A DNA stretch of 43,797 bases from Microcoleaceae cyanobacterium bin_387 (GCA_037440985.1 JBBITB010000001.1:1-43797); one strand, 5' to 3'. Shown: positions 180 through 41,204, counted from the first letter of the stretch. Program-made: numbers and translations. Notes: a model not told the origin generated them from the letters alone.

Positions 180-2414
180 TCAAACATCCCGTAATTGTAG
201 AAAATGAACTCGTCCTGATGTTTCTCCCACGACAACAATTTTACCATTGGGCGCGATCGCGCAGCATTTTAACATACTCTCACCAGTCCAAGTTGCGATT
301 TCTTGACGGCGGGATAAATCCCAAACTTTGAGGGTATTGTCATCAGAAACCGAAATCAGAATATTTCCTTTTGTTGCAATGGAAGTAACCGCGTCTTGGT
401 GACCGATGAGGGTAAAAAGTTCCCTTTTATTTTCCCAATTCCAAACTTTAATTGTGCGATCGCGGGAGCCAGAAATCAACAATTGACCATCACTGCTAAG
501 GGCGACCGAATTGACATCATGGGTATGACCTTTCAAGCTATAATTATTCGAGCCTTTGACTAATTTAAAGACATCTTTCCATACCCCCTTTCCCCCAGGA
601 ATGTCGGAAATATTAATCATTTGATTACTCGTTCCTGAAATAATTTTTTTGCCATCGGATGTAATTACTAAAGAACGAATGCCATGATAATAATCATCGC
701 TTAAACTACAGATTTCTTTTTGGGTATCACGATCCCAAATTTTTAATGTATTATCTCCAGAAGCGGAAATAATTTGTTTGCCATTAGGAGTAACAACCAC
801 GACATTGACCCAATCTTGATGACCTGTCAACGTCCCTACTTTTTCTCCAGTTTCCCCATTCCAAATTTTAATTGTCCTGTCCCCAGACCCGGAAATAATC
901 TCTTTACTATCAGGAGTTAATGTTACCGATTTCACCCAATCACTATGGGATTTTACAGTGAAAAGTTCCTCACAATTTTCTAAATTCCAAACGTTGATCG
1001 TGCCATCTCCAGAACCGGAAATTACCCGTTTACCATCTCCGCTAATTACCACAGAATTAACACATTCAGAATGGCCTTGACAACGTAAAGTTTCGCCTTC
1101 AATATAATCTTGAAGATTCCATAGTTTAATGGATTTATCTGAAGAACCAGATAGGACCATATTTCCATCAGGAGTCATGGCAACCGTATTCACCGGTGCG
1201 ATATGATCAACCAGAGTAAATAATTCTTGACCTGTGGATAAATCCCATACTTTGAGAGTATTATCATTAGACGCAGAAATCACTTTTGTGCCATCAGGAG
1301 TTACCCATACATCATTAATATAGGCATTGTGACCTTGCCAAGTGGAAATTAATTGTCGAGTCTCTAAATTCCAAACTTTTAGACTCTGATCCCAAGAACA
1401 GGAAATCACTTGTTTTCCATCAGGGGTAATTGATAAACCTTTGACCCATTCTGTGTGACCGGAAAGACTAAAAAGTTCCTTTCCTGTCTCCAAATTCCAG
1501 ACTTTTAAGGTTTTATCTCCCGATCCTGAAATCAATCGTTGTCCATCGGGATGAACCGCGAGGGCTTGGACAAATCCACTATGACCTTTTAAAGTTAAAA
1601 GTCGCTCCCCTGTTTCTAAATTCCAAACTTTAATTGTCCCATCCCAAGAACCCGAAACAATGCGGGTTCCATCCACCGTTACCGCGACAGTTTCAACGGC
1701 AAAAGGTTCACCGCCAATTGTGAATAATTCTGACCCATTTTCTAAATCCCAAACTTTTAAGGTCTCATCCCAAGCGCCTGAAATTCCACGTTTCCCATCC
1801 GGGGTAATCGCGACAGCATTAATATAACTTCGATGACCCTCTAAGGTGAAAATTACATCTCCTGTTGCTAAATCCCAAACTTTTAATGTTTGATCTGAAC
1901 TTCCTGAAATTGCTCGTGTGCCATCGGGCGCTACCGCGATCGATTGTACCCAATCTCGATGACCCTTCCAAGTTTGTAATAACCGACTACCAGGAGGAGT
2001 TAGACTAGGATTTAAGGGTTCAATCGTGAGATTTTCGCTCTCTCTTGCTTGTTGAAGTAATTTCTGAATTTCTGGTTCAGAAAATGACATTAATCGACCT
2101 AATAATTGTGCCGGAAGTTGTTTTTTATCTTCCTTTAAAATATGCACTGATAATCTAATTGCGCTTTGAATTATTCTCAGAATTTTACTTTGCTCGAACA
2201 TCAAATTATCGGCGAAATCATAATCCTTTATTAATTTGTATGCTCCGACCTTTTCTAATTTAGCTTCGATAAAGGTATAATCGGTGAGAAGATGATATAA
2301 TTTATCGGGTTCTGTTTGGGCTAACTGATGAGGCAAGCTTTCTAGTAGCTGGCAGAGTTGGGGTTCCGATAACTGTTCAGGTAGCCAATCAAAAGATTTT
2401 TGAAAATCACTCAT
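180..2414 (-). CDS. WD40-repeat protein (about 14 WD repeats, i.e. two 7-bladed propellers) with a 130-aa N-terminal alpha-helical region
   Basis: 744-aa ORF. Residues from about 140 onward are back-to-back WD40 units with GH...(S/A)xSxDxT(I/L)K(V/L)W(N/D) signatures repeated about 14 times. The N-terminal 130 aa are non-repeat and helical. Start is ATG at 2414. Confidence 0.85.
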   Translation of the reverse strand: MSDFQKSFDWLPEQLSEPQLCQLLESLPHQLAQTEPDKLYHLLTDYTFIEAKLEKVGAYKLIKDYDFADNLMFEQSKILRIIQSAIRLSVHILKEDKKQLPAQLLGRLMSFSEPEIQKLLQQARESENLTIEPLNPSLTPPGSRLLQTWKGHRDWVQSIAVAPDGTRAISGSSDQTLKVWDLATGDVIFTLEGHRSYINAVAITPDGKRGISGAWDETLKVWDLENGSELFTIGGEPFAVETVAVTVDGTRIVSGSWDGTIKVWNLETGERLLTLKGHSGFVQALAVHPDGQRLISGSGDKTLKVWNLETGKELFSLSGHTEWVKGLSITPDGKQVISCSWDQSLKVWNLETRQLISTWQGHNAYINDVWVTPDGTKVISASNDNTLKVWDLSTGQELFTLVDHIAPVNTVAMTPDGNMVLSGSSDKSIKLWNLQDYIEGETLRCQGHSECVNSVVISGDGKRVISGSGDGTINVWNLENCEELFTVKSHSDWVKSVTLTPDSKEIISGSGDRTIKIWNGETGEKVGTLTGHQDWVNVVVVTPNGKQIISASGDNTLKIWDRDTQKEICSLSDDYYHGIRSLVITSDGKKIISGTSNQMINISDIPGGKGVWKDVFKLVKGSNNYSLKGHTHDVNSVALSSDGQLLISGSRDRTIKVWNWENKRELFTLIGHQDAVTSIATKGNILISVSDDNTLKVWDLSRRQEIATWTGESMLKCCAIAPNGKIVVVGETSGRVHFLQLRDV

Positions 2415-3280
2415 AATTGAAGGATTATGGCAAAAAGATAGTGGATTGTTTATGATACCCTGTCAGAGATATTGCTGCAATGATCTCGATCAAGACGTGG
2501 GAGAGAGTAACGACCAGGCAGAAAACCCCCGAAAGTTATCCTAATTGGGTGAGGATACCTGTTTGATCGGGTTGAGCTTTATAAATTGTTACTTTCTGAT
2601 GTCCTTTACATCCCTGTCTAATATTATAACTTACGAATTACCCTGAGCAGCATCCGAGACAAAATGAAACATTTTTTCAGATATAGCAATCCTAAATAGA
2701 TTGTGAGAGTTTGGGACTGAGGGTGTCTTGCTCCCTTGCTCCAAAACCATTTGCGAGGGAGATGCTCCCACTCCTATTATTAAGATTAAATCTGTTACGA
2801 CTGATCTAATATGGCTCTATTTTCCCTATGTCATTGGGCAATATATAGTCTTCAATTTCCTTTTCGTCTATACCTTCTTTGTCCTGCCATTCAAATTTTA
2901 TCCCAAGGATATTCTTGACTTTCTACAAAGGTTATTTATTCGTTATTTTTTTCCAAATTCAAGGGCAGGAGCAAGGATTTTTTTTTACTTATAGCGCTGA
3001 TTTATGGGGGAATTGGTACTCGGATACTTTCCTTTACTGTGACATATTAACTAATGGGTAAGTTCCGATGAATAATCTTTAAAGTTTTGACATTTGACTT
3101 CTGTCAGCTTGATCGGATCTTTATCATCCGTCTTCGGTGAAGTTATCCCCCGGCTTTAAATAGATATTTCTTATTGCTCCTGTATTATGGTCAAATTTAA
3201 AATAGATAATCTCTCTCATAACATCAGGAAAATGGGTAAAGTTTCACGATATTTTTGTCATTAGACATCTCCAAAAATTA

Positions 3281-3437
3281 CTGTAGGGTAGGCTAGGGAG
3301 CATCTCAAAGAAGCAAAAAAAACTGATAGGGGCACGGCAGTGCCGTGCCCGTACTTGAGGTAGCCTGTGCGGAGCATCAGAGCATCCCCCTCTCTAGGGA
3401 TCTAATAGGGCACGAGACGCTCCCACAGCCAATTTAG
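3281..3437. repeat. Dispersed intergenic repeat, family A copy (gggagcatctcaaagaagcaaaaaaaactg ... ggtagcctgtgcggagcatcagagc ... gagacgctccc), also containing a cacggcagtgccgtg palindrome
   Basis: Shares segments of at least 25 bp with 21349-21460, and gggagcgaga(c/t)gctc motifs with 15266-15376 and 19446-19526. Begins with the ctgtagggtaggct motif that is also found at 28622 and 39873. Confidence 0.6.
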
Positions 3438-3620
3438 ACAAATGAGTTAAACTGACGTAGATTTGTGACAGTTAAATGATCTGTCTTTGCCAAAAATTCT
3501 CAGTGTTGATGGGATATTTGCAATAGACGATACAGTTATGATTAATGGCGGAATCTTGATCGCGGCAAAAATAAATGTCCCACTATTGCCATTGGGGAGT
3601 AGATTAACAATAAAGAAACT

Positions 3621-4925
3621 TTAGAGACTTCTTTGAGGCAAAGTGAAATAAAAAGTAGCTCCTGCACCTAATTCTGATTCCACCCAGATTTTACCCCCAT
3701 GACGTGCTAAAATTTTTTGACAGATCGCGAGTCCGATTCCTGTACCCGAATATTCCTCTTGAGTATGGAGACGCTGAAAAATTTGAAAAATACGTGAAAA
3801 GTGCCTAGAATCAATACCTATGCCGTTATCTCGAACTGCGAATAGACTATAGTCATTTTCATGGATGCAAGTAATCTCAATGACAGGGGGTTCATCCCTA
3901 TGATACTTAATAGCATTGCTAATCAAATTTTGAAACAGTTGTACTAATTGAGAATTATCGCCCATCACCACGGGCATCATACTATAGATAATAGATGCTT
4001 TATTTTTCTGAATCACTCCTTGGAGATTAGCCATTACTTCTTCTAATATACGATTACAATCACATACCTCAAACTTTTGCCCCCTACTACTAACGCGTGA
4101 ATATTCTAGCAAATCATCGATCAATTTTTGCATTCGACTCGCTCCCTTCACAATTTTTTGAATAAATTGATGAGCCTTCGCGTCCAAGTTATCTTTATCA
4201 CGTTCTTGTAAGAGTTGTGCATAATTCGCGATCGTTGCCAGAGGCGCCTGTAAATCGTGAGAAGCAATAGAAGCAAATTGCTCTAATTCTGCATTAGAGC
4301 GGGCTAATTCCTGATTCGTTTTTTGTAGAGCTAATTCGGCTCGTTGTCGTTCACTAATTTCTTTTTGCAATAAAATATTTTGTTCCTGCAAAGTTTTTTC
4401 CACAGCCAAACGACTATTAATTTCCTGTTGCAATAAAATATTCTGATCCTGCAAAGTTTTTTCCACAGCCAAACGACTATTAATTTCCTGTTGCAGTAAA
4501 ACATTTTGTTCTCTCAACTGCATTTGTAACCGTCTTAGCACCAGTTGATTTTCTATTCTTGCTAAAACTTCTTCGACTTGAAATGGTTTACTGATATAAT
4601 CAACAGCCCCTAATGTAAATGCTTTAATCTTATCAAAAACTTCATCTTTGGCACTTAAAAAAATCACCGGAATTTCGCGTGTTTTCTGATCCTCTTTCAA
4701 TTTTTGACAAACTTCATATCCATCCATTTGAGGCATCATAATATCCAATAAAACCAAATCAGGTGCTTTGGTTTGTACTGCTCTCAATGCCATTTGCCCA
4801 TTGAGTACAGCCCGACATTGATAGCCACGTTCGCTCAATAATGTAGATAACAAACGCAGATTTTCCGGTTTATCATCAACAACTAAAATATTTCCCTGAA
4901 AAGACAATTCTTGTTCCTTATTCAT
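3621..4925 (-). CDS. Response-regulator / histidine-kinase fusion: N-terminal REC domain, coiled-coil linker, HisKA and HATPase_c
   Basis: The REC domain has the motifs DD...D(LLDIMMP)...K(ISKP). The H-box is ASIASHDLQAPL. The C-terminal region shows N/G1/G2 ATP-lid motifs (NAIKY, DNGIGID, GTGIGLAI). The ORF track starts at TTG 4931. The first ATG is at 4925 (MNKEQ...) and overlaps the upstream gene's TAA as ATGAATAA. Confidence 0.85.
   Translation of the reverse strand: MNKEQELSFQGNILVVDDKPENLRLLSTLLSERGYQCRAVLNGQMALRAVQTKAPDLVLLDIMMPQMDGYEVCQKLKEDQKTREIPVIFLSAKDEVFDKIKAFTLGAVDYISKPFQVEEVLARIENQLVLRRLQMQLREQNVLLQQEINSRLAVEKTLQDQNILLQQEINSRLAVEKTLQEQNILLQKEISERQRAELALQKTNQELARSNAELEQFASIASHDLQAPLATIANYAQLLQERDKDNLDAKAHQFIQKIVKGASRMQKLIDDLLEYSRVSSRGQKFEVCDCNRILEEVMANLQGVIQKNKASIIYSMMPVVMGDNSQLVQLFQNLISNAIKYHRDEPPVIEITCIHENDYSLFAVRDNGIGIDSRHFSRIFQIFQRLHTQEEYSGTGIGLAICQKILARHGGKIWVESELGAGATFYFTLPQRSL
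4368..4493. repeat. 63-bp in-frame tandem duplication inside the REC-HK gene (2 full copies plus a diverged partial third copy to about 4520)
   Basis: Copy 1 is 4368-4430, caataaaatattttgttcctgcaaagttttttccacagccaaacgactattaatttcctgttg. Copy 2 is 4431-4493 and differs at 2 positions. The encoded 21-aa unit is NILLQQEINSRLAVEKTLQ(D/E)Q, three heptads, sitting in the REC-to-HisKA linker. Confidence 0.8.
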
Positions 4926-7647: not shown

Positions 7648-8043
7648 TTACACTGTTTCTAAACCCGATTTTATTGTGTCAATTAATTCGTTGCTATCCC
7701 AGGGTTTGTAGAGACAGCGGTAAAGATTTGCTTCATTTACTACCCGTTCAATCGCCTCTGCATCAGCTTGGCCTGTTAACATAACTTTGACAATATTAGG
7801 GTATTTTTGATGAACTCTAATCAGAAATTCATCTCCCTTAATTCCGGGCATTAACCAGTCGGAAACTATTACTAAAATATCATTGCTTTCTTCTTCTATT
7901 TCATCAATGATTTCTAAGGCTTCATCGGCACTTTCAGCAAATTCATAAAAATAAGCCTCACCAAATTCTTTTTTTAGTTGAATTTTTAAGCTATTTAAAA
8001 CGACAGATTCATCATCTACACATAAAATTATTGGTTTAGACAT
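7648..8043 (-). CDS. Single-domain CheY-like response regulator
   Basis: 131 aa (ILCVDDE ... VSDWLMPGIKG ... LYKP). It is paralogous to the N-terminal REC of the 893-aa kinase. SD aaggag lies upstream of ATG 8043. Confidence 0.8.
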   Translation of the reverse strand: MSKPIILCVDDESVVLNSLKIQLKKEFGEAYFYEFAESADEALEIIDEIEEESNDILVIVSDWLMPGIKGDEFLIRVHQKYPNIVKVMLTGQADAEAIERVVNEANLYRCLYKPWDSNELIDTIKSGLETV

Positions 8044-8107
8044 TGGGCTTCACTCCTTTTTTTATTCTGAATTTAACTAGCAACTTCATGCCATAATATG
8101 ACAAAAA

Positions 8108-8344
8108 TTATGGTATGATTTGCTCATGTGTAAAGAGTCGTACATCATCATCCACTAGATAGTTATCATGGATGGGAGTTACACCATAAATAGTGCAACC
8201 CGTACCAAATAGCACCGGATCAAGGACAATCGGGATACCCGTAAAAAATGGCCCACGAAGACCGAAAATCCCTGGGATACAGTCGCGATCGCCAGATGAG
8301 GGACAAACTACTTCCCACCCCATAAATTTACATATTTGTATCAA
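8108..8344 (-). CDS. Hypothetical small protein (78 aa), family not recognised
   Basis: This ORF lies between the CBS-kinase and the CheY gene, all on one strand. Its composition is more GC-rich than the flanking AT-rich spacers. No recognisable motifs. Confidence 0.25.
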   Translation of the reverse strand: MIQICKFMGWEVVCPSSGDRDCIPGIFGLRGPFFTGIPIVLDPVLFGTGCTIYGVTPIHDNYLVDDDVRLFTHEQIIP

Positions 8345-8428
8345 CCTTAAAATGAAATCAGATAAGATGATTGTACCCTGACCATTACAGAGTCCTCTTA
8401 CAGCTTCCTATTATATCATCAATGTTGC

Positions 8429-10465
8429 TTAATTATCTGTTTTGGGGAGAAATATGGAAAAAGTGGTTTGGCCGGGTTGGCTATCTACTTCTATTTTCCC
8501 TCCATGTTTATCAATAATTTTCTTGACAATTTGTAAACCTAAGCCACTACCTTCCCCTGCTGGTTTAGTGGTAAAATAAGGTTGAAAAATTTTGGGTAAA
8601 ATCTCTGGGGGTATTCCTTTACCATTATCAATAACACTCACTATTATATTTTCCTCTTGCTGAGTTACCTCTATTTTCAAAATTCCTTGATAGTTCATCG
8701 CGTGTAAGGAATTATGGAGTAAATTTGTCCAAACTTGATTGAGTTCATCGGGATAACATAAAATATCGGGTACGTTGGGGTCATAATATTTGATAATTTC
8801 AATGCCATGCTTCAGTTGATTATGATAAAGGGTTAATACTGTTTCAATGCCTTCACGAATGTTTGCGATTTCTTTTTGCTCTGAATGATTCCGTCGGATA
8901 AATTTTTTTAAGGCTAATACGATTTTTGCTGCTCTTTCTGTGGCATTAATAATATTTCGGGTACTTTGCTGTAAACTGACTAATTCATAAACTCGTTCGA
9001 GTATATTGAGGCTGTTTATATCTTGAAAAAAACGCCCGTACTTTTGCTCGTCCGATATTTCATAAATACCCATGTCAACAAGCAGTTCTGCGATTTCGTC
9101 ACTTTCGGTAATATTTTTTTCTTCTAAAACTGTAATTAATTCGCGTTTTATCTGTCGTTTTTCTTTGCTGGATAAATTATTATATTCAGTTTTTGCTTGT
9201 TTCAATAAATATTGAAACACTTGATAATTTTCCGCTGAAATGTCACGAAAAAAACTAGGTAAATCTTGGGTGATTGAACTTAAAATATTATCAATGTTGT
9301 GGACGGAAGAACGCAACGCGGCTAAAGGATTATTGATTTCATGGGTTACTCCTGCAATCAGTTGTCCAAGGGCAGCCATTTTTTCAGAGTGGATTAAGTC
9401 TTGTTGTGTGCTTTGGAGATGCTCCAAAGTTTGTTGTAATTCTTGATTTTTTGATGCTAAGATGGCGTTGGTTTCTGTTAGTTCTAATGTGCGTTGTTTA
9501 ACTTGTTCTTCTAATAATTTATTAAGTTCGCGTAACTTTTCTTCTGCAATTGCACGTTGTTTTACTTCCTGTTCCATTTGGGAATTAACCGTGATTAATT
9601 CTTCAGTTTTGGCGTTGATGCTTTGCTGTAAAATTTGCACCGTTGTGTACATTTCTATGGGATCTAAAGCATGGAGAATACTGGTTTGGGTCAAAATTCC
9701 GGCTAAATATCCCTTTTGATCAACTACTACTAAGCGACGAATATTATTGTCTTGCATTATTTGATGGGCTTGCCAGAGAGTAAAATCCAGTTTCGCGGGT
9801 AACAATGGACTACTCATTACTTTTTCGGCTTGAGTCTGATGCAGATCCATTTGGGAGAGTTTAAATTTGACGATATCTCTTTCTGTAATAATGCCCAGGG
9901 GGATGATTTTTCCATCATTTTTGGTTTCGCCAATAACGATACAGCTTTTACGATGGATAGTCATTTGTTGGGTTACTTCAAAGACAGATAGGTTTTTTGA
10001 GGCTGTTATGACATTTTTCGAGCTGATAATTTCACCTACGCGTCGCATTTTGAGTAAATCCGTGGCTTTGAGGACTTGTCGCACGCTTTGAGGGGTAATA
10101 ATTCCGATGATATTTTTCTCTGAGTCAAGGATGGGGAGGTGACGAATCTGGGAGGAGCGTAGGAGGGATAAAACGGAGAAGATATCCCCGGCTTCTTCTA
10201 GGGTAAGCGCGATGACATTAGTTGTCATTATTTGGGAGATGGGGATACCTTCTAAGGGCATTTGATAGAAGGTAATTTTGACGATATCTCTTTCTGTCAA
10301 AATGCCCAGAAGTTTTTGCTCTTCGCTAATGAGAATATAACTGGAATGATTTTCGCTCATTCGCCCGATCGCGTCTAGTATGGGGGTATTGGGGGAAACA
10401 AGAAGGGGACCACGGGTAATGGCGTTTTCGAGTAAATTAGAGTTTTCTGGAAGAGATTCTGACAT
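8429..10465 (-). CDS. CBS-domain sensor histidine kinase (two CBS pairs, coiled coil, HisKA, HATPase_c)
   Basis: 678 aa. The N-terminal half has four CBS-like units (GILTERDIV, IGIITPQSV, GIITERDIV, GILTQTSIL). The H-box is THEINNPLAAL. The C-terminal ATP-binding motifs are HNSLHA, DNGKGIP, GSGLGL. Confidence 0.8.
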   Translation of the reverse strand: MSESLPENSNLLENAITRGPLLVSPNTPILDAIGRMSENHSSYILISEEQKLLGILTERDIVKITFYQMPLEGIPISQIMTTNVIALTLEEAGDIFSVLSLLRSSQIRHLPILDSEKNIIGIITPQSVRQVLKATDLLKMRRVGEIISSKNVITASKNLSVFEVTQQMTIHRKSCIVIGETKNDGKIIPLGIITERDIVKFKLSQMDLHQTQAEKVMSSPLLPAKLDFTLWQAHQIMQDNNIRRLVVVDQKGYLAGILTQTSILHALDPIEMYTTVQILQQSINAKTEELITVNSQMEQEVKQRAIAEEKLRELNKLLEEQVKQRTLELTETNAILASKNQELQQTLEHLQSTQQDLIHSEKMAALGQLIAGVTHEINNPLAALRSSVHNIDNILSSITQDLPSFFRDISAENYQVFQYLLKQAKTEYNNLSSKEKRQIKRELITVLEEKNITESDEIAELLVDMGIYEISDEQKYGRFFQDINSLNILERVYELVSLQQSTRNIINATERAAKIVLALKKFIRRNHSEQKEIANIREGIETVLTLYHNQLKHGIEIIKYYDPNVPDILCYPDELNQVWTNLLHNSLHAMNYQGILKIEVTQQEENIIVSVIDNGKGIPPEILPKIFQPYFTTKPAGEGSGLGLQIVKKIIDKHGGKIEVDSQPGQTTFSIFLPKTDN

Positions 10466-10594
10466 AATTTATGGTTAAAGTAGTGATGGGATTGGCGGGT
10501 GTTTTTGATCCTTGGATATAGTTGAGATTATTTCCCTGAGAAACTAGGTTTCTTGACAGATAGTAACCTCGATAATTAATCGTGGAAATTGCAG

Positions 10595-10622
10595 AAACCC
10601 GGTTTTTGGAAAAAACCGGGTT
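10595..10622. terminator. Palindromic hairpin aaacccggtttttggaaaaaaccgggtt downstream of the NTPase gene (possible terminator)
   Basis: Perfect 12-bp inverted repeat with T/A runs, 35 bp beyond the stop of the minus-strand gene that ends at 10657. Confidence 0.35.
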
Positions 10623-10656
10623 GATGTGGGGAATTTATCGGTAAGATCCCTGGAGT

Positions 10657-12942
10657 TTAATCGGCTCGCATCCACCGGAAAAAAGACGCGATGGCGCGAT
10701 CAATAAAACTATAGGGTTTTTCCTCACTTAATTTCCGTTGTACTCTTTCACGTTGCCATTCCAATTCTGTAATTAACATTTCTCCCTGTTGATTACGCAG
10801 GACTATTGCTAAATAATCATGGCTGATTTGATAGTAATCAAAAGGTAGAGAAGGGATCACAGAAATAATGCCCGCTTCGCTCAAAATATCGAGGACTAAA
10901 TCCAATTTATTCGCTTCTCCGGCTAAATCAAAGGCAAGTTCATCACGAGTTTTCATGACACGAGAGCCATTTTCATTGGTGAGTAAAAATAACACTAATC
11001 GGGCTGTCCGTTCATTTAGTCTTCCACAGTTGCTAATCACATCATCGAAGAAATTTTTGATCAAAACTCGTTTGGGAGATTCTCCTAATTTGTGGTAATT
11101 TTCTATCGTGGTAATGCCTGACTTTTGCAACTGAGAACCTAACAGTTGCAACGCGATCGGTGCCACCGTATCCATTTCATCCCATAATTCCATCATTACG
11201 CGATCGAGTAATTCGGGATCTAAAATAAATTGGGTGCGATGGGTTAACTTTTCCATCAGATGTCGGGCATGGCTAAATTGTAAATTACCTAAATAATAAC
11301 GAATCTCTTTCGACAATAAATCATTGTTAATACTGTCCAGATTTGTACAGCGTTCACATTCTAATAAATAATGTAACGCGTCACTACGAATTGACAAGAT
11401 CATTTTGAGGGAATCCTGTTGTAAACAAAACTCGAAGAAGTCATAAAATATTCTTCTGGTAGAACGGTTTCTCCCCAAAAAGAAATCCTCGAATTGATCA
11501 AAAATCAGGAGAATTAAATGGTTTTGACTGGTCAACTCTTCGATGGTATTTTCTACATCTTTCACTGATAAAAAGTTCCCTCCCTCTGGAACTTCTGAGG
11601 TAGGAGAATTTCTTTTTAATTGTCTGTATAGGTCTCTTACCCAATCTCTGTAATTACTGACTGTTACCATCACTAAAGGAGTTTCCGTGAACCCCTCTGT
11701 TGATGATTGGGATAAAAGAGGAATTAATCCGGCTTGTAGTAAAGAAGTTTTCCCAACCCCTGATTCTCCATGCAATACTGTCAATTTTTTTTGGGGATCT
11801 TTGACCCGTTCTACTAAGGCATCGACATCGCTGCGGCGACCGGAGTCTTCTATTTCTAGCGCGATCTTCGCGGGGGAAGATTTATTAATAATCAGAGGAG
11901 ATAGGGGCGAAATACCAATAAAAGAATTGCGACCATACTGATATTTAATCATCCTCTCTTTCTGATAAATACGGAAGGCTTCCCGATACTCATCTTGGTC
12001 GAAGTACAGCTTTTGTAAAGCTTTTAATATCTGTAGATAAATCTGTAATTCTTGTTTAGGATCTGTTTTAGCTAGGGCATCTTCCAATTCTTTAACAGTG
12101 GATTGCCATTGATGAAATTCTTGACGAGATTCGGCTACCAGAATAGCATAAGAACTCTGACTATCTGTTTCCTCTAATTGGGATTGGGTTTGAATCGCGA
12201 GTGCTAATTCCGCGAGTTGACTGGCATGAGCCCATTTAGAATTGTGCATCGCGGCTTCTGCTAAAAAGCCATAGTCTTGAGCTAATTGACTTTCGGAACC
12301 ATAGGTGATATGTAAATTTAAGGCTTTTTGGGCGAGACTTTGCAAGTCTTCCCATAAAGATAAATGCTGTAATACTTCTCCCTGTTGATTAATAAATTTA
12401 GAGACTAAATCTTCACGCCCTGCTTCTTGGCAAATGTCTAAACATTGCTGGAAATACTGTTTGGCATCTTTCCAGTGAATTACGGTTTCTTGCGTTGGCT
12501 CTAAAACTCCTAAGCGATAGTGACACAAACCGATATGAAAGAATAAAATTGCTAACCATTCTAATGTAGTCTGTGACACGGAATGTTGTGGAGAACCCTT
12601 GCTTTTTGACTTGGATTCTTTCGGCTGCCAGAATATCAAAGTTTTTTGATAATGAGCTAACGCGTCTTTAATTTCATCGCGACTATAGCACTCTCGCCCT
12701 CGCATAAATTCTAAATTTGCTTTGAGTTGAGGTTCTAATTCATGCTGATGTCGTAGTAAATCGCGAATAACTGCCTGTAGTGTTTGATAATCAATGTCTC
12801 CCAAAATGTCGGAATTGGGGAGAAAAGTGGGTGTCTGGGGATCTAAAATGTTCCCCAGAATCTCTGTAATACTTTGCTTGAGAAAATTCACTAACCCAGG
12901 TGTATCCACGGGTATATATTCTGGTTGGTTTGTATCTGCCAT
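10657..12942 (-). CDS. STAND-class P-loop NTPase (nSTAND/AAA_16-like) with an N-terminal TPR-like helical domain of about 380 aa
   Basis: 761 aa. Walker A is LTVLHGESGVGKTSLLQAGLIPLL near aa 385-410. Walker B is LLIFDQFEDFF about 80 aa later. Both match the GxSGxGKS/TSLLxAGL and hhhhDQFEE signatures of STAND NTPases. After the NTPase there is an alpha-helical region of about 300 aa but no WD40/TPR repeat array. The N-terminal 380 aa are helical and TPR-like. Confidence 0.75.
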   Translation of the reverse strand: MADTNQPEYIPVDTPGLVNFLKQSITEILGNILDPQTPTFLPNSDILGDIDYQTLQAVIRDLLRHQHELEPQLKANLEFMRGRECYSRDEIKDALAHYQKTLIFWQPKESKSKSKGSPQHSVSQTTLEWLAILFFHIGLCHYRLGVLEPTQETVIHWKDAKQYFQQCLDICQEAGREDLVSKFINQQGEVLQHLSLWEDLQSLAQKALNLHITYGSESQLAQDYGFLAEAAMHNSKWAHASQLAELALAIQTQSQLEETDSQSSYAILVAESRQEFHQWQSTVKELEDALAKTDPKQELQIYLQILKALQKLYFDQDEYREAFRIYQKERMIKYQYGRNSFIGISPLSPLIINKSSPAKIALEIEDSGRRSDVDALVERVKDPQKKLTVLHGESGVGKTSLLQAGLIPLLSQSSTEGFTETPLVMVTVSNYRDWVRDLYRQLKRNSPTSEVPEGGNFLSVKDVENTIEELTSQNHLILLIFDQFEDFFLGRNRSTRRIFYDFFEFCLQQDSLKMILSIRSDALHYLLECERCTNLDSINNDLLSKEIRYYLGNLQFSHARHLMEKLTHRTQFILDPELLDRVMMELWDEMDTVAPIALQLLGSQLQKSGITTIENYHKLGESPKRVLIKNFFDDVISNCGRLNERTARLVLFLLTNENGSRVMKTRDELAFDLAGEANKLDLVLDILSEAGIISVIPSLPFDYYQISHDYLAIVLRNQQGEMLITELEWQRERVQRKLSEEKPYSFIDRAIASFFRWMRAD

Positions 12943-13155
12943 TGCCCTAACCTACTTTTGACAAAACTGTTAATATAATCATTTTAGATTGTAGATTTAA
13001 GATTAAGCCCAGAACTTTCTGTCGCACTACTCTCAAATCTTGTCTCCAAAATTTTTTCTTCTTCATCAAGAATTGATGTTTTGGCCGATTTCACCCGAAA
13101 TCTAGCTTGATGGAGCTTGACTGGGCAAGTATTTTGGCTTATTTCTTCTCTTGAT

Positions 13156-13791
13156 TTATTTGGTTCCGTAGAGGCGATCACCTGCATCTCCTAATCCTGG
13201 TATTATATACCCATATTCGTCGAGATGTTCATCAATGGCCGCGGTATAAATTGGGACATCGGGGTGTTGTTCATGGAAATGTTTAATACCCTCTGGAGCG
13301 GCCAATAAGCATAAAAACTTAATGGATTGAGGACTGACTTCTTTGAGTCGATCTACGGCCGCGATCGCGGAGTTTCCCGTTGCCAACATCGGATCGACAA
13401 TTAAAACATCCCTTTGATCAATATCATAGGGCAGTTTAAAATAATATTCTATCGTGAGCAAGGTGGTGGGATCTCGGTATAATCCGATATGTCCGACACG
13501 CGCAGAGGGTATTAATTCTATGATACCATCTAAAAGTCCCTGACCCGCCCGCATAATCGAAACTATTACCATTTTCTTTTCCGTTGCTAAGATGGGGGCA
13601 TTCATTGTCGCGACTGGAGTTTCTATTTTTTCATATTTTAATGGTAAATCTCTGGTGACTTCATAAGCTAGTAACATCCCTATTTCTTTGAGCAATTGTC
13701 TAAAAAGCGCGGTACTTGTTTTCTTTTGCCGTATCAGGGTTAATTTATGTTGTACTAAGGGATGTTCAATCACGGTTACTTGATTTTTCAT
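13156..13791 (-). CDS. upp: Uracil phosphoribosyltransferase
   Basis: [21 protein letters not shown]..., MRAGQGL, and the PRPP-binding loop [13 protein letters not shown]. The start is the ATG at 13791, which aligns with the E. coli Upp N-terminus. The ORF track extends to 13818. Confidence 0.85.
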
Positions 13792-21512: not shown

Positions 21513-22661
21513 TTATTTAACTAGCTTTACTGGTATAATTTCTGTAGGAATTTCTATGGTAAAAATAGAACCATTCGGCTTATTAGCATCTACGGAAATT
21601 TTTCCCCCATGAGCTTCAACCGCCATTTGACAAAAAGCTAATCCTAGTCCCGTCTGAGAAACGCCACTGATGATATTTCCTATTTCATACTTTTCAAATA
21701 TTTTTTGTTTTACTTCTTCACTGATACCCCGTCCCTGATCCTTGACTTGAATTTTTATTGTTGATGAAGAAGTATATTCAATAATAAATGTAACTTGACT
21801 ATTTTCGGGTGAGAATTTAAACGCGTTAGAAAGTAAATTATCCATCACACGCCGCAATAAGATTTCATCGATCCGAACCGCGTAATTAGGTTCCGGTAAA
21901 TTCGTCACAAAATCAATTTTTTTCTGTATCGCGATCGCGTGAAAATCTTGCCTAACTGCATTACTCAATAGAGAAAGATCAACCTCAGTTAGATTAAGTA
22001 AAAATTTACCCGCTTCTAATTTTGCCATCATCAAAAGACTATCAATCAAAGATTGTAAACGATTGGCAGATTGAGAGATTGTTTGCAGCTTGTTAAGCTG
22101 TTTTTCTTCCAAATTAGTCCGTTTCAACATTTCGGAAGACATCATAATAACTGTGAGAGGATTACGCAAATCATGGACAACCATATTAGACATATCTTGA
22201 CGCAATTGTAGGGACACTGCTTGTTTTTCTAATAAAGCTTCTTTTTCCTTTACCAGAGACTCCAGGGCATCATGTTGTTGCTTAATTCGTAACATAGAGC
22301 GCACCCGTGCCCGCAATTCCACGGGACTAACAGGTTTACTAATAAAATCATCAGCCCCCGTGTTTAAAGCACGAGCTAAATCTTCTTTACTATTAAGATC
22401 CGTCACCATAACAATCGGAATATAACACCAAATGGGATGGGCTTTAATCTGACGACAAACCTCTATTCCATCCATTTCTGGCATCATTACATCAAGTAAA
22501 ATTACATCCGGTTGAGATGTCTCTAAAAAGACGAGGGCTTCTTCACCACTGGTAGCATAATTTAACTCATAACCCTCTGTAAAAAGGATAAATTCGATCA
22601 CATCAAAATTATTTTGTTCATCATCTACGACTAAGACTGAATGATTGCTATCTTTTCTCAT
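21513..22661 (-). CDS. Response-regulator / histidine-kinase fusion (REC, HisKA, HATPase_c), paralogous in architecture to 3621-4925
   Basis: The REC has VLVVDDE...LLDVMMPEMDG...SKP. The H-box is VVHDLRNPLTVI. ATP-binding motifs are NAFKFS, DQGRGI, GLGLAF. The ORF track starts at GTG 22670. The first ATG at 22661 overlaps the upstream kinase's stop by 14 nt. Confidence 0.85.
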   Translation of the reverse strand: MRKDSNHSVLVVDDEQNNFDVIEFILFTEGYELNYATSGEEALVFLETSQPDVILLDVMMPEMDGIEVCRQIKAHPIWCYIPIVMVTDLNSKEDLARALNTGADDFISKPVSPVELRARVRSMLRIKQQHDALESLVKEKEALLEKQAVSLQLRQDMSNMVVHDLRNPLTVIMMSSEMLKRTNLEEKQLNKLQTISQSANRLQSLIDSLLMMAKLEAGKFLLNLTEVDLSLLSNAVRQDFHAIAIQKKIDFVTNLPEPNYAVRIDEILLRRVMDNLLSNAFKFSPENSQVTFIIEYTSSSTIKIQVKDQGRGISEEVKQKIFEKYEIGNIISGVSQTGLGLAFCQMAVEAHGGKISVDANKPNGSIFTIEIPTEIIPVKLVK

Positions 22662-39977: not shown

Positions 39978-41198
39978 ATGAAATCTATCCCTCGTATAGA
40001 ATATCTCAAAGTGCAAAATTATCGCGCTTTACATAATCTCGAACTCAAAAATCTTACCCCCTTAACCGTCTTTTTGGGGCCCAATGGCAGCGGAAAATCA
40101 ACGATTTTTGATGTCTTCGCTTTCCTGTCTGAATGTTTCACCGAAAGCCTCAGAAAAGCATGGGATAGACGGGGCAGATTTAGAGAATTACGCACCAGAG
40201 ATAGTGACGGCTGCATCATCATTGAATTAAAATATCGAGAGACATCCAAATCGCCTTTAATCACCTATCATCTCGCCATAGATGAGGAAAATAATCGTCC
40301 CTATATTGCTGAAGAATGGCTACATTGGAGAAGAGGCAATCAAGGTAAACCTTTTCGCTTTTTAGACTTCAGAAAAGGCGAAGGACAAGTCATTAGTGGC
40401 ACAACTCCTGATAAGGAAGAAGGCGAAAGGATTATCGAACAACTAGCATCACCTGAATTATTAGCAGTAAATACATTAGGACAATTTGCCAAACATCCCC
40501 GCGTTAGTGCCTTAAGACGTTTTATTACAGGTTGGTATTTATCCTATTTAACTGCGGATCATACTCGCAGTCTTCCCGAAGCAGGGGCCCAGGAAAGATT
40601 ATCTCCTACTGGTGACAATTTACCCAATGTTATCCAATACCTAAAAGAACAACATCCCCAACGGTTAGAAGAAATACTAAAAACCCTTTCTAATCGTATT
40701 CCACGCCTCGAAAAAGTCGAAGCTTCTATTATGCAGGATGGCAGACTTTTGTTGGAAATTAAAGATGCTCCGTTTTCTCATCCGATTCTGGCAAAGTTTG
40801 CCTCTGATGGTACATTAAAACTCTTAGCTTATCTGACAGTATTATTTGACCCGACTCCCCCGCAATTAGTGGGAATAGAAGAACCAGAAAATCATTTACA
40901 TCCGCGTTTATTACCTCAACTTGCCGAAGAATGTCGTTCGGCTTCTGCTAATACTCAATTAATGGTAACAACCCATTCCCCCTTTTTTGTCGATAGTTTA
41001 AAACCAGAGGAATTATGGGTATTATATCGAGATTTAAAAGGCTTTACCCAAGCTAAAAGAACCGCAGATATGCCCGGAGTTAAAGAATTTATGAATCAGG
41101 GTGCATTACTTGGTTCGCTGTGGATGGAAGATTTTTTTGATGTGGGAAATCCTCTTAAAAATTCTGGTGTTCCTCAATCGTTCACAGCTAAAAATTAA
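39978..41198 (+). CDS. ABC-type ATPase of the OLD/AAA_21-AAA_15 family (RecF/SMC-like)
   Basis: Walker A is [17 protein letters not shown] near aa 30-45. The Q-loop region follows. The Walker B/D-loop is [13 protein letters not shown]. The H-loop is [12 protein letters not shown]. There is a long insert between the two ATPase halves, typical of OLD/AriA/GajA-like ATPases. Confidence 0.8.
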
Positions 41199-41204
41199 GA
41201 GGAG

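What the first reader, a model, noticed from the sequence alone, without database searches (positions are those of the whole stretch)
10657..12942. Solitary STAND-type NTPase with inverted architecture (N-terminal TPR-like solenoid, C-terminal NTPase, no repeat sensor array)
The Walker A (GESGVGKTSLLQAGLIPLL) and Walker B (LLIFDQFEDFF) motifs are the diagnostic pair of the NACHT/nSTAND clade of conflict-system NTPases. Canonical members carry an N-terminal effector and C-terminal TPR/WD40 sensor repeats. Here the TPR-like helices are N-terminal, there is no recognisable effector, and the protein ends about 300 aa after the P-loop. The gene sits alone downstream of upp. The window also holds a WD40 protein at 180-2414 whose 130-aa N-terminal helical region looks like a post-NTPase linker but has no NTPase of its own. 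Together these could be a rearranged or split STAND signalling system, or a regulatory NTPase, but the link is speculative.
Basis: partly seen in the sequence, partly recalled or inferred. Interest (0 to 1): 0.65.

Follow-up and report, generated by a model that had tools for sequence, protein, structure and literature searches.

The report
Stripped-down solitary cyanobacterial STAND ATPase
This gene encodes an intact molecular-switch ATPase of the STAND/NLR type that keeps only a peptide-binding-like helical domain, the ATPase core and a short amphipathic tail; it is the minimal, stand-alone relative of a widespread family of giant two-gene cyanobacterial proteins, and it is not a split partner of the nearby WD40 gene.

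Summary
ORF 10657..12942 (-) encodes a 761-aa protein. Its C-terminal half is a bona fide nSTAND1 STAND NTPase: Pfam 91 bits against a cut-off of 27, with intact Walker A, Walker B and the winged-helix histidine. Its N-terminal half is a confidently modelled TPR solenoid resembling LGN, KLC and Rap/NprR. There is no effector domain and no C-terminal repeat array.

The word "inverted" is misleading. The TPR-then-NTPase order is constant across a large family of filamentous cyanobacteria. Its usual members are 1550-2070-aa giants that also carry an N-terminal pseudo-AAA+ domain, a predicted transmembrane helix and a C-terminal WD40 array (rarely GUN4, TPR or pseudo-kinase). They sit behind a conserved ~440-aa partner NTPase gene. 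The window protein belongs to one clade that lacks all four additions and ends in an amphipathic helix.

It is chromosomal and under purifying selection (dN/dS 0.19). Its most conserved segment is a TPR hairpin. It has no recurrent defence neighbours.

The WD40 ORF at 180..2414 is an NTPase-less Apaf-1-type fragment of a different STAND lineage, and its proximity is not conserved, so the split-system idea is rejected. A weak recurring adjacency to two-component signalling genes is the best functional lead.

Verdict: a new variant of a known kind, of moderate interest.

The parts
10657..12942 (-). Complete gene for the 761-aa short-form TPR-nSTAND1 STAND NTPase (stop codon 10657-10659)
   Evidence: ORF listing. 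About 47 complete short-form members of 724-764 aa seen, ending at the same residue except the Okeania group, which ends about 26-30 aa earlier. dN/dS 0.19 against the 94%-identical relative in L001.
11938..12903 (-). N-terminal TPR-like helical solenoid, aa 14-335
12175..12327 (-). Nearly invariant TPR hairpin, aa 206-256 (HITYGSESQLAQDYGFLAEAAMHNSKWAHASQLAELALAIQTQS); the family hallmark
   Evidence: It has the lowest column entropy of the whole protein: windows 223-237 and 239-253 score 0.38 and 0.47 bits, against 0.48-0.49 for the Walker motifs. 28 of 51 columns are at least 90% conserved. DYGFLAEA was one of the two peptide patterns (with I[FL]DQFEE[FL]) that together retrieved 454 confirmed relatives in species-representative genomes. 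dN/dS is 0.08.
10810..11841 (-). nSTAND1 NTPase module (NOD), aa 368-711: P-loop domain ~370-555, helical domain 556-653, winged helix 654-712
   Evidence: Pfam PF20703 at 91.1 bits, covering profile positions 18-340 of 379. AF2 topology. Structural matches to PAB2304, Apaf-1 and Cdc6/ORC.
11746..11769 (-). Walker A, G392-E-S-G-V-G-K-T399
   Evidence: Read directly from the sequence. G392, G395, G397 and K398 are invariant among the aligned short-form members.
11485..11511 (-). Walker B, L478-L-I-F-D-Q-F-E-D486
   Evidence: Read directly from the sequence. D482, Q483 and F484 are invariant even in the 99-sequence alignment that includes distant nSTAND1 proteins.
10810..10824 (-). Winged-helix motif S-H708-D-Y-L, with an invariant histidine in the position of the MHD-type histidine of other STANDs
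   Evidence: H708, Y710 and L711 are invariant. The equivalence to the MHD histidine is inferred from its position at the end of the winged helix and was not verified on coordinates.
10723..10818 (-). Long C-terminal helix, aa 709-740, shared with the giants (where it leads into the TM segment)
   Evidence: AF2 helix 709-740. Alignments with giants extend to about aa 742. The giants' linker consensus continues into a hydrophobic 19-mer.
10660..10719 (-). Short-form-specific amphipathic tail, aa 742-761 (KPYSFIDRAIASFFRWMRAD)
   Evidence: Conserved among most aligned short-form members as EKPNSFxDRAIxSVFRWMRxD; the Okeania group lacks it. Hydrophobic moment 0.68, rank 3 of 744 windows. No TM-grade hydrophobicity. 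dN/dS 0.08 for aa 713-761. The AF2 helix 746-760 has low confidence.

Best explanation
The gene encodes a functional, free-standing STAND (NLR-type) nucleotide switch reduced to three parts:
- a peptide-binding-type TPR solenoid;
- a complete nSTAND1 NTPase module (P-loop domain, helical domain, winged helix);
- a long helix ending in an amphipathic tail.

It is the minimal member of a family specific to filamentous cyanobacteria. The usual members of that family are giant proteins, predicted to span the membrane, encoded behind a partner NTPase gene.

Shown:
- domain identities and intact catalytic motifs;
- absence of an effector, a repeat sensor, a TM segment and the partner gene;
- a single short-form clade;
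- purifying selection;
- chromosomal, non-defence context.

Inferred mechanism:
- Like other STANDs, it rests as an ADP-bound closed monomer and assembles into an oligomer on nucleotide exchange.
- The trigger, or the thing recruited, is a conserved cellular partner or peptide bound by the invariant TPR hairpin, not a variable invader molecule.
- With no enzymatic domain, its output is scaffolding: the oligomer brings bound partners together.
- This probably happens at a membrane surface reached through the amphipathic tail, which sits where the giants have their transmembrane helix.

I therefore read it as a regulatory or signalling ATPase rather than a classical anti-phage sensor. The recurrent sensor-kinase and response-regulator neighbours are the most plausible pathway.
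For: Identity:
- nSTAND1 at 91 bits.
- Walker A, Walker B and the winged-helix histidine are invariant.
- Confident AF2 model matching Apaf-1, PAB2304 and Cdc6 for the NOD, and LGN, KLC, NprR, Rap and PlcR for the TPR.

Minimal architecture within a giant family:
- The N-module of the giants has an AAA+ fold without a P-loop.
- 146 of 199 extended members carry a TM-like segment.
- The partner NTPase lies directly upstream in 47 of 66 giant loci. It is absent from the window and from the eight short-form loci tested for it.

Functional and constrained:
- dN/dS is 0.19 overall, 0.17 for the TPR and 0.08 for the tail, within the range of neighbouring housekeeping genes.
- Length is conserved across genera at 41-46% identity.
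- The short forms make one clade.

Fixed rather than variable binding surface: the TPR hairpin at 206-256 is the most conserved segment of the protein.

Non-defence context:
- Neighbours are housekeeping and differ between lineages.
- No defence system recurs within 5 kb.
- Short forms are absent from plasmids and phages.
- Both criteria used by PMC13581612 to call a STAND clade defence-associated are unmet.

Membrane hint: the tail is amphipathic and ends where the giants' TM helix begins.

Signalling hint:
- A two-component gene lies directly next to the short form in 3 of about 8 independent contexts.
- An orthologous HK-core and RR pair (50% and 61% identity) is still linked at +6.5 kb in Capilliphycus and Limnoraphis.
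- Two family members carry a fused kinase-like domain.
Against: - No biochemical or genetic data exist for any member.
- Oligomerisation, nucleotide dependence, the TPR ligand and membrane binding are all inferred.
- The model coordinates and PAE were not available. I could not see whether the invariant hairpin faces the TPR groove or packs on the NTPase, in which case it would be an autoinhibitory interface rather than a partner site.
- The tail is modelled with low confidence.
- nSTAND1 was defined within predicted counter-invader systems (PMC8195603). The giants occur on megaplasmids beside toxin-antitoxin, integrase and NACHT genes, so a conflict role for the family is quite possible.
- The kinase adjacency is statistically weak (crude P 0.01-0.04, post hoc), involves non-orthologous kinases on either side, and is not significant within +-10 kb.
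- The dN/dS rests on a single close pair.
Confidence: 0.5

Rival explanations
1. It is an NLR-like conflict or anti-phage sensor. The N-terminal TPR recognises an invader protein, ATP-driven oligomerisation follows, and an effector encoded elsewhere, or a toxic activity of the oligomer itself, kills or arrests the cell.
For: - nSTAND1 was defined in predicted counter-invader systems of multicellular bacteria (PMC8195603; PMC10907252).
- TPR-like repeats are the commonest sensors of defence STANDs (PMC13581612).
- Giant paralogues are multi-copy and lie on megaplasmids next to TA modules, integrases and a NACHT gene.
- One short-form locus (L095) is followed by a glycosyltransferase with a weak GT4-conflict match.
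- L002 has PIN, Uma2 and a Cas1 fragment 4-6 kb away.
Against: - There is no effector domain and no adaptor (EAD or Death-like) domain.
- No defence system recurs within 5 kb in eight short-form loci scanned with PADLOC and Pfam or in the further loci examined.
- The presumed sensor contains the most conserved segment of the protein and evolves under purifying selection. This is the opposite of diversifying sensors.
- Vertical inheritance with residual synteny.
- No plasmid or phage copies of the short form.
Confidence: 0.2
2. It is an accessory ATPase of a two-component phosphorelay. The short form binds or scaffolds the neighbouring sensor kinase and response regulator (CBS-HK 8429..10465 and RR 7648..8043 in the window) and gates their signalling by nucleotide-dependent assembly. 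This is a specific version of the regulatory reading.
For: - The gene is on the same strand as, and 191 bp upstream of, CBS-HK, RR, hybrid HK and RR-HK in the window and in L001.
- An RR-domain gene lies directly downstream in the 59% relative L092.
- PAS-HK and RR-HK lie directly downstream in L089.
- A GAF/HATPase protein lies directly upstream in Okeania and Dapis.
- An orthologous kinase core (50%) and RR (61%) are still linked at +6.5 kb in Capilliphycus and Limnoraphis.
- A PatA-RR/CheW/MCP/CheA cluster lies 2 kb downstream in Planktothrix.
- Family members P0254 and P0352 are fused to a kinase-like domain.
Against: - Two-component genes are very abundant in these genomes (6 of about 29 ORFs in this window).
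- Within +-10 kb the association is not significant. Direct adjacency gives only P 0.01-0.04, post hoc.
- The adjacent kinases are not orthologous to one another, apart from the window and Lyngbya-group pair, and they lie on different sides.
- The fused kinase-like domains have lost the phospho-acceptor histidine and do not resemble the CBS-HK.
- L002, L005, L007, L090 and L095 have no adjacent two-component gene.
Confidence: 0.2
3. It is a modulator or decoy of the giant paralogues. Lacking the pseudo-ATPase, TM and WD40 parts, it co-assembles through the shared TPR-NOD core with giant family members encoded elsewhere in the genome, and either caps or primes their oligomers. Truncated NLRs in plants behave this way.
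For: - It shares the whole TPR-NOD core, including the invariant hairpin, with the giants at 35-42% identity.
- Stand-alone copies of other family modules exist, for example an N-module-only ORF in L067 and TPR-only proteins P0246, P0250, P0340 and P0365. The family does shed modules as separate proteins.
Against: - In the lists retrieved, genera with short forms (Planktothrix, Lyngbya, Limnoraphis, Capilliphycus, Okeania, Dapis) contributed no giants, and genera with giants contributed no short forms. This suggests replacement rather than coexistence, but the lists are truncated and this was not tested on whole genomes.
- The short forms are a separate deep clade.
Confidence: 0.08
4. It is half of a split STAND system whose sensor is the WD40 protein at 180..2414.
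For: - The WD40 ORF has a post-NTPase helical domain but no NTPase.
- Its size (744 aa) is close to the giants' C-terminal extension of about 700-760 aa.
- An orthologue (41% identity, including the N-terminus) lies 3 kb from the short form in Okeania SIO3B5.
Against: - The WD40 ORF's N-terminus is an Apaf-1-type HD2. In 101 of 120 relatives it aligns after NB-ARC/NACHT domains.
- It has no similarity to this family's linker, by BLAST, phmmer or a linker profile.
- NTPase-less versions occur independently elsewhere.
- Co-localisation is absent in the syntenic Okeania SIO1I7 and Dapis loci and in all other contexts.
- In the window, four unrelated genes and 8 kb separate the two.
Confidence: 0.02

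Closest known systems
nSTAND1 clade of STAND NTPases (Pfam PF20703; defined by Kaur, Iyer, Burroughs and Aravind, eLife 2021, PMC8195603)
   Same: The NTPase module matches the family profile far above threshold over 323 of 379 positions. It has the same DQFEE-type Walker B and the same NBD, helical domain and winged-helix order.
   Different: Described nSTAND1 proteins carry N-terminal effectors or adaptor domains (EAD8/EAD10, trypsin, TIR) and C-terminal sensors (FGE/CLec, WD40) in conflict-type neighbourhoods. This protein has neither, has a TPR solenoid N-terminal to the NTPase, and sits among housekeeping genes.
Giant cyanobacterial proteins (pseudo-AAA+, TPR, nSTAND1, TM, WD40) with an upstream partner NTPase, e.g. 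WP_159402664.1 of Nostoc sp. ATCC 53789 pNsp_c and WP_012167062.1 of Acaryochloris marina pREB2. They are uncharacterised and auto-annotated as 'ribosome assembly protein 4' or 'WD repeat-containing protein'.
   Same: They share the TPR solenoid with the DYGFLAEAA hairpin, the nSTAND1 module and the following long helix, at 35-42% identity over about 95% of the query.
   Different: The window protein lacks four things: the ~140-aa pseudo-ATPase N-module, the TM segment and the 700-760-aa WD40 array, and the operonic ~440-aa partner NTPase. Instead it has a unique amphipathic tail.
Apaf-1 / CED-4 type AP-ATPases and archaeal PAB2304 (solved STAND and STAND-like structures)
   Same: The fold of the NOD module is the same: Foldseek E 2e-7 to 2qen, and 1.7e-6 to 5e-5 for Apaf-1 entries 5juy, 1z6t and 3shf. 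The expected mode of action, nucleotide-gated oligomerisation, is the same.
   Different: Sequence identity is about 12-16%. Apaf-1 has an N-terminal CARD and C-terminal WD40 sensors, and no solved STAND in the hit lists has a TPR solenoid N-terminal to the NOD.
Peptide-binding TPR modules: LGN/Pins, kinesin light chain, and the RNPP receptors Rap, NprR and PlcR
   Different: No cognate peptide gene is conserved upstream. The TPR is fused to an NTPase rather than to a phosphatase or DNA-binding output. The binding groove and ligand are unknown.
Bacterial STAND transcription regulators (MalT, AfsR/SARP-type with a helical BTAD domain N-terminal to the NOD)
   Same: They are precedents, from established knowledge, for non-immune STANDs and for a helical repeat-like domain preceding the NTPase. 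PMC13581612 notes that non-defence STAND clades, including regulators, are interspersed with defence clades.
   Different: No DNA-binding domain was detected here, and there was no sequence match to MalT or AfsR families in any search.

Membership tests
STAND NTPase, nSTAND1 clade (PF20703) | Match to the family profile above the curated threshold | tested here: met
   91.1 bits against 27.1, E 1.5e-25, aa 368-711. Relatives are named nSTAND1 domain-containing NTPase by NCBI and UniRef.
STAND NTPase, nSTAND1 clade (PF20703) | Intact Walker A (GxxxxGK[ST]) and Walker B (hhhhD followed by acidic residues) | tested here: met
   GESGVGKT at 392-399 and LLIFDQFED at 478-486. The key residues are invariant in 46- and 99-sequence alignments.
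STAND NTPase, nSTAND1 clade (PF20703) | Tripartite NOD: P-loop domain, helical domain and winged helix, with a conserved histidine | tested here: met
   AF2 topology. Matches to Apaf-1, PAB2304 and Cdc6/ORC. H708 is invariant. Its contact with the nucleotide is inferred.
STAND NTPase, canonical NLR-like architecture | C-terminal superstructure-forming repeat array acting as sensor | tested here: not met
   The protein ends 50 aa after the winged helix. The downstream gap of 191 bp encodes nothing.
STAND NTPase, canonical NLR-like architecture | N-terminal effector or effector-associated adaptor domain | tested here: not met
   Pfam, NCBIfam and PADLOC find none. The N-terminus is a TPR solenoid.
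STAND NTPase (functional definition) | Nucleotide-dependent oligomerisation | not testable with these tools
   Needs purified protein (SEC-MALS or cryo-EM, with and without ATP/ADP).
Defence-associated STAND clade (criteria of PMC13581612) | Known defence genes enriched within 5 kb | tested here: not met
   53 neighbouring ORFs from eight short-form loci gave only scattered single-domain PADLOC hits and no recurring system. The window and further short-form loci have housekeeping or signalling neighbours. The sample is small, so no formal binomial test against the paper's null of 0.0153 was run.
Defence-associated STAND clade (criteria of PMC13581612) | Immune-type effector domain fused to the STAND | tested here: not met
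   None found in the query or in the aligned short-form members.
Tetratricopeptide repeat (TPR) domain | Sequence match to a TPR family above threshold | tested here: not met
   Query: TPR_12 at 15.9 bits against 30.1. The equivalent region of paralogues does pass: P0082 at 55 bits and P0059 at 33 bits.
Tetratricopeptide repeat (TPR) domain | Right-handed solenoid of antiparallel helix pairs | tested here: met
   [not shown]
Giant two-gene TPR-nSTAND1 system of filamentous cyanobacteria | TPR with the DYGFLAEAA hairpin followed by nSTAND1 | tested here: met
Giant two-gene TPR-nSTAND1 system of filamentous cyanobacteria | N-terminal pseudo-AAA+ module, TM segment, C-terminal WD40 (or GUN4/TPR) array, upstream partner NTPase gene | tested here: not met
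   All four are absent from the query and the window. The N-module HMM finds nothing in window ORFs of 100 aa or more. There is no TM-grade segment, no extension, and no partner homologue among window ORFs of 100 aa or more.
Split STAND with the WD40 ORF 180..2414 | WD40 ORF derived from, or matching, this family's post-NTPase region | tested here: not met
   Its N-terminus is APAF1_C and aligns after NB-ARC/NACHT in 101 of 120 relatives. The linker profile matches only its WD40 repeats.
Split STAND with the WD40 ORF 180..2414 | Conserved co-localisation of the two genes | tested here: not met
   Seen only in the window/L001 lineage and in L010, and absent in L086, L087 and the other contexts.

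The most novel reading that the evidence does not exclude
The short form is a soluble or peripheral-membrane regulator that evolved from a transmembrane, two-gene STAND receptor system. It has been re-wired to a two-component phosphorelay: its invariant TPR hairpin binds a host sensor kinase or response regulator, and ATP-driven assembly gates signalling. This would be a first case of an NLR-type switch serving as an accessory of histidine-kinase signalling, and an example of an immune-like receptor family domesticated for housekeeping regulation in multicellular cyanobacteria.
Probability: 0.15. Interest if true: 0.7.

Novelty: new variant of a known kind. Interest (0 to 1): 0.45.

Why it matters
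STAND/NLR proteins are usually understood as three parts: sensor, switch and effector. Here a lineage of filamentous cyanobacteria keeps, under purifying selection, a version with the switch plus one TPR module and nothing else. This raises the question of what a bare NLR-type switch can do.

If it is regulatory, it documents a functional shift out of a conflict-type family and offers a small, soluble, tractable entry point (761 aa, against 1600-2000 aa) for biochemistry of the whole family.

The comparison also exposed features of the giants that I did not find described in the papers I could search:
- a conserved partner NTPase gene;
- an N-terminal pseudo-AAA+ domain;
- a predicted TM helix that would put the NTPase and the WD40 array on opposite sides of a membrane.

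Those features would make the giants candidate transmembrane STAND receptors, which is testable.

Tried and rejected
1. Split system with the WD40 ORF. Rejected on homology and on lack of conserved linkage. The single Okeania co-localisation (L010) looked promising but is not shared by the syntenic L086 and L087.

2. Decayed NTPase upstream of the WD40 ORF. tblastn and ORF listing of 2300-3700 found nothing.

3. RNPP-like cognate peptide gene upstream of the short form. A 36-aa ORF is called in L001 and is present in the window. However, all three substitutions between the two are non-synonymous, and no similar ORF exists in the other short-form loci.

4. Rosetta-stone link from the kinase fusions P0254 and P0352 to the adjacent CBS-HK. 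The fused domains lack the phospho-acceptor histidine and do not match the CBS-HK.

5. A word-indexed homologue search with the 152-aa N-terminus of the WD40 ORF returned nothing. This was a wasted search. The full-length search was swamped by WD40 repeats but could be mined afterwards.

6. Sequence search of the giants' N-module against the PDB gave nothing. Only the fold search identified it as AAA+-like.

7. Pseudogene or decay reading. Rejected by dN/dS and by conserved length.

8. Housekeeping AAA+ (DnaA, RuvB, DnaC, as some source annotations say). Rejected: the only family above threshold is nSTAND1 (plus generic AAA_22), and NCBIfam gives no housekeeping equivalog.

9. Promoter and terminator scans of 10300-13300 were uninformative.

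11. The polarity of the architecture change (loss or gain of the termini) could not be resolved, because the midpoint root falls between short and long forms.


Full report
1. THE OBSERVATION

The window has an ORF at exactly 10657..12942 on the minus strand, encoding 761 aa.

Pfam assigns aa 368-711 to nSTAND1 (PF20703) with E=1.5e-25 and 91.1 bits, against a gathering score of 27.1. The match covers profile positions 18-340 of 379. AAA_16, NACHT, NB-ARC and other STAND-related families are weak secondary hits. NCBIfam finds no housekeeping equivalog. PADLOC gives only P-loop-level matches.

The flanking gaps are too short to hide lost domains: 213 bp to upp upstream and 191 bp to a CBS-domain histidine kinase downstream.

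2. ANATOMY

A 99-sequence alignment gave an AlphaFold2 model with mean pLDDT 86.5 and pTM 0.76.
- aa 14-335: 14 helices arranged as hairpins.
- aa 370-555: an alpha/beta P-loop domain.
- aa 556-653: a helical domain.
- aa 654-712: a winged helix.
- aa 709-740: one long helix.
- aa 742-761: a low-confidence terminal helix.

In the query itself, TPR Pfam models stay below threshold. They pass in the equivalent region of paralogues.

Among 43 short-form members (the three closest relatives excluded), the most conserved stretch of the whole protein is not the P-loop. It is one TPR hairpin, aa 206-256 (…AQDYGFLAEAAMHxSKWAHAxQLAELALAIQxQS). Column entropy there is 0.38-0.47 bits, against 0.48-0.49 for Walker B and Walker A.

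H708 in the winged helix (SHDYL) is invariant. I take it to be the counterpart of the MHD-type histidine of other STANDs, which is an inference from its position.

The last 20 residues (KPYSFIDRAIASFFRWMRAD) are conserved in most aligned short-form members; the Okeania group ends before them. They form one of the three most amphipathic 18-residue windows of the protein, with hydrophobic moment 0.68.

3. THE FAMILY, AND WHY "INVERTED" IS THE WRONG WORD

A homologue search found short-form relatives of 725-764 aa at 41-46% identity (59% for the closest distinct relative, P0006, and 89-94% for near-identical ones), nearly all covering at least 94% of the query. They come from Planktothrix, Limnoraphis, Capilliphycus, Dapis, Okeania and Microcoleaceae MAGs; Lyngbya was added by the genome scan. 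It also found many longer proteins that cover 90-97% of the query and extend at both ends.

In species-representative genomes, more than 454 confirmed relatives were found, all in cyanobacteria and mostly filamentous ones. The usual form there is a giant of 1550-2070 aa.

An exhaustive phmmer search with the TPR half alone found 629 representative clusters.
- Where the match begins near the query's N-terminus, it starts at about residue 150 of a 900-2000-aa protein.
- Only two listed clusters are of the short type.

So the order TPR then nSTAND1 is the constant core of this family, and the window protein is that core alone. The giants add four things.

(a) An N-terminal module of about 140 aa.
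- It has no Pfam or PDB sequence match.
- It lacks a P-loop: LILARCNY stands where GxxxxGK[ST] would be. It is therefore a pseudo-ATPase.

(b) A strongly hydrophobic 19-residue segment.
- Its median Kyte-Doolittle score is 1.97.
- It starts a median of 18 residues after the position equivalent to query residue 742.
- It is present in 146 of 199 extended members.
- If it is a single transmembrane helix, the NTPase and the C-terminal array lie on opposite sides of a membrane. This rests on hydrophobicity alone.

(c) A variable C-terminal module: WD40 in 115 of 241 members examined, GUN4 in 5, a classical TPR array in 2, and a histidine-kinase-like domain without the phospho-acceptor histidine in 2.

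(d) A conserved upstream gene for a STAND/KAP-like P-loop NTPase of about 440 aa.
- It lies directly upstream in 47 of 66 giant loci with enough sequence, and within 0.4-2 kb in about a dozen more.
- It often overlaps the giant's start codon.
- It is 48-71% identical to the two reference partner proteins.

None of these four features is present in the query, in the 43.8-kb window, or in the short-form loci tested for them.

In a neighbour-joining tree of the shared core, the short forms make one clade, with the window protein as its deepest branch. The midpoint root lies between short and long forms, so I cannot say whether the ends were lost or gained.

4. IS IT ALIVE, AND WHERE DOES IT LIVE?

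Against the 94%-identical relative in L001, dN/dS is 0.19 overall:
- 0.17 for the TPR;
- 0.08 for the invariant hairpin;
- 0.05 for the winged helix;
- 0.08 for the C-terminal helix and tail.

These values fall within the range of upp, DUF1688, the CBS kinase and the response regulator next door, which span 0.00-0.28.

Short-form genes were examined in about eight independent genomic contexts. The neighbours are mostly housekeeping and differ between lineages:
- DUF1688 and upp;
- D-Ala-D-Ala ligase;
- a solute-binding protein and an acetyltransferase;
- urease;
- an epimerase.

Residual synteny is visible. DUF1688-upp is kept in the 59% relative L092, and DUF1688 is kept in L007. This pattern is expected for a vertically inherited chromosomal gene.

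A PADLOC and Pfam scan of 53 neighbouring ORFs within 5 kb in eight loci found no recurring defence system. tblastn finds only giants on cyanobacterial megaplasmids and nothing meaningful in phages.

The 2026 survey of prokaryotic STANDs called a clade defence-associated if defence genes were enriched within 5 kb or if immune effectors were fused. Only 198 of 589 clades qualified (PMC13581612). By both criteria the short-form clade does not qualify, on this small sample.

5. THE WD40 ORF AND THE SPLIT-SYSTEM IDEA

The 744-aa ORF at 180..2414 has about 12 WD40 repeats. Its first ~130 residues match the APAF-1 helical domain (PF17908, 27 bits against 22.8).

But the linker belongs to another lineage. 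In 101 of the ORF's 120 best relatives, this region aligns at positions 330-700, behind NB-ARC/NACHT/TIR-type N-termini.

It shows no similarity to the linker of the TPR-nSTAND1 giants, by BLAST, by phmmer or by a profile of that linker. The profile matches only the WD40 repeats. No NTPase remnant lies in the 1.2-kb gap upstream of the ORF.

An orthologue of the WD40 ORF does lie 3 kb from the short form in Okeania SIO3B5. However, the syntenic loci of Okeania SIO1I7 and Dapis lack it, as do all other contexts (and others). I reject the split-system reading.

6. HOW IT MOST LIKELY WORKS

Shown:
- a complete, conserved STAND switch with intact catalytic motifs;
- a TPR solenoid of the peptide-binding type with a fixed hairpin, not a variable one;
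- an amphipathic tail at the position where the giants enter the membrane;
- no enzymatic domain.

Inferred:
- The protein cycles between an ADP-bound closed monomer and an ATP-bound oligomer, as established for Apaf-1, MalT and Avs proteins.
- The TPR hairpin either binds a conserved cellular partner or clamps the NTPase in cis.
- The output is scaffolding of bound partners, probably at a membrane surface.

I give this regulatory-scaffold reading a confidence of 0.5.

The most concrete lead for the partner is two-component signalling.
- A sensor kinase or receiver-domain gene is the immediate neighbour in 3 of about 8 contexts. These are the window/L001/L092 lineage, L089, and the Okeania/Dapis lineage.
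- A kinase core 50% identical to the window's CBS kinase, followed by a response regulator 61% identical to the window's RR131, is still linked at +6.5 kb in Capilliphycus and Limnoraphis.
- Two family members carry fused kinase-like domains.

The statistics are weak. Direct adjacency gives a crude binomial P of 0.01-0.04, post hoc, and the association is not significant within +-10 kb, because these genomes are crowded with such genes. I keep this as a separate hypothesis at 0.2.

The conflict-sensor rival (0.2) rests on three things: the origin of nSTAND1 in predicted counter-invader systems, the plasmid and TA/integrase context of some giants, and one GT4-conflict-like neighbour. Against it stand the invariant "sensor", the purifying selection, and the absence of an effector and of defence neighbours.

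A decoy or modulator role towards the giants (0.08) could not be tested, because I could not search whole genomes for coexistence.

7. COMPARISON WITH WHAT IS KNOWN, AND NOVELTY

The protein is a member of the nSTAND1 clade by every sequence and fold criterion tested. It fails the two architectural features of canonical NLR-like STANDs, namely the effector and the C-terminal repeat sensor. It also fails all four accessory features of its own giant relatives.

NCBI and UniRef already label several relatives "nSTAND1 domain-containing NTPase". I found no paper describing this cyanobacterial subfamily, its short form, the partner gene, the pseudo-ATPase module or the TM segment. The literature search covers open-access text only.

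I therefore class the finding as a new variant of a known kind, with interest 0.45. It is a tidy, conserved example of a bare NLR-type switch, and a tractable handle on an uncharacterised family, but it has no demonstrated function.

8. LIMITS
- There are no coordinates or PAE for the models.
- dN/dS comes from one pair.
- The neighbourhood sample is small.
- TM prediction is by hydrophobicity only.
- The tree is neighbour-joining with a midpoint root.
- Coexistence of short and giant forms in one genome was not tested.
- The source organism is not among the species representatives. The best match there is 44%. The closest relatives are metagenomic Microcoleaceae-type sequences.

Noticed in passing
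L084 6897-8246 and 8455-13989; L085 7244-8554 and 8551-14043; 47 of 66 giant loci among L008-L083: The giant relatives of the window protein sit in a conserved two-gene operon behind a ~440-aa STAND/KAP-like P-loop NTPase. That partner is 48-71% identical to the two reference partner proteins and often overlaps the giant's start codon. It has only borderline Pfam matches and no convincing PADLOC system. I did not find it described in the papers searched.
   Followed up: partly
Giants in L008-L083 and P0241-P0383, about 18 aa after the position equivalent to query aa 742: 146 of 199 extended family members have a TM-grade hydrophobic 19-mer (median Kyte-Doolittle 1.97) between the winged helix and coiled helix and the WD40 array. 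This would place the NTPase and WD40 on opposite sides of a membrane. It rests on hydrophobicity only.
   Followed up: partly
[not shown]
   Followed up: partly
window 180-2414 (-) and the 1.2-kb gap 2415-3620: A 744-aa protein made of an Apaf-1-type helical domain (HD2) plus about 12 WD40 repeats, with no NTPase. Similar NTPase-less versions exist elsewhere (P0228, P0214, P0141, P0123, P0200, P0178, and an 836-aa orthologue in Okeania L010). The 1.2 kb upstream holds no ORF longer than 88 aa and no NTPase remnant.
   Followed up: partly
window 7648-10465 (-); L003 18881-20805; L093 18741-20665: The kinase core of the CBS histidine kinase and the 131-aa response regulator downstream of the STAND gene have orthologues (50% and 61% identity) that are still linked, 6.5 kb downstream, to the short-form gene in Capilliphycus and Limnoraphis. 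In those genomes the kinase carries a receiver domain instead of CBS domains.
   Followed up: partly
P0254 (aa ~890-1124) and P0352: Two family members carry a C-terminal HisKA plus HATPase_c domain in place of WD40. The phospho-acceptor histidine is replaced (YNFRTPL and YQLRTPV), so these are pseudo-kinase domains.
   Followed up: partly
L003, L006, L012, L093 (two genes upstream of the short form); P0059, P0060, P0066, P0067: GUN4, a porphyrin-binding domain, appears twice around this family. It is the C-terminal module of some giants. It is also part of a Ser/Thr kinase-GUN4 protein two genes upstream of the short form in the Lyngbya/Limnoraphis/Capilliphycus group. This may be coincidence.
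   Followed up: no
L095 12320-13468: In one metagenomic short-form locus, the gene is followed 25 bp downstream by a glycosyltransferase with a weak match to the GT4-conflict family, which has been proposed as an effector of counter-invader STAND systems.
   Followed up: no
window 39978-41837 (+): An adjacent pair: an AAA_21/AAA_15 ATPase (406 aa) and a DUF4276 protein (210 aa). This arrangement is reminiscent of two-gene ATPase plus Toprim-like defence pairs. It was not examined further.
   Followed up: no
window 31924-35803 (-): A Ser/Thr kinase-WD40 protein (655 aa) whose start overlaps by 77 bp the end of a 662-aa SPFH/Band 7 protein. It is another WD40 signalling protein in the same window.
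   Followed up: no
window 21513-27201 (-) and 27696-28793 (-): A 1517-aa hybrid kinase (CBS, GAF, PAS, HK and receiver) with an RR-HK downstream. Just upstream of the hybrid kinase on the same strand lies a 365-aa protein with a retropepsin-like aspartyl protease domain.
   Followed up: no
whole window: No species-representative genome (GTDB r232 set) has a relative of the STAND protein closer than 44% identity. The closest sequences (89-94%) are from JGI metagenomes and Microcoleaceae MAG fragments, so the source organism appears to be unrepresented among species representatives.
   Followed up: partly
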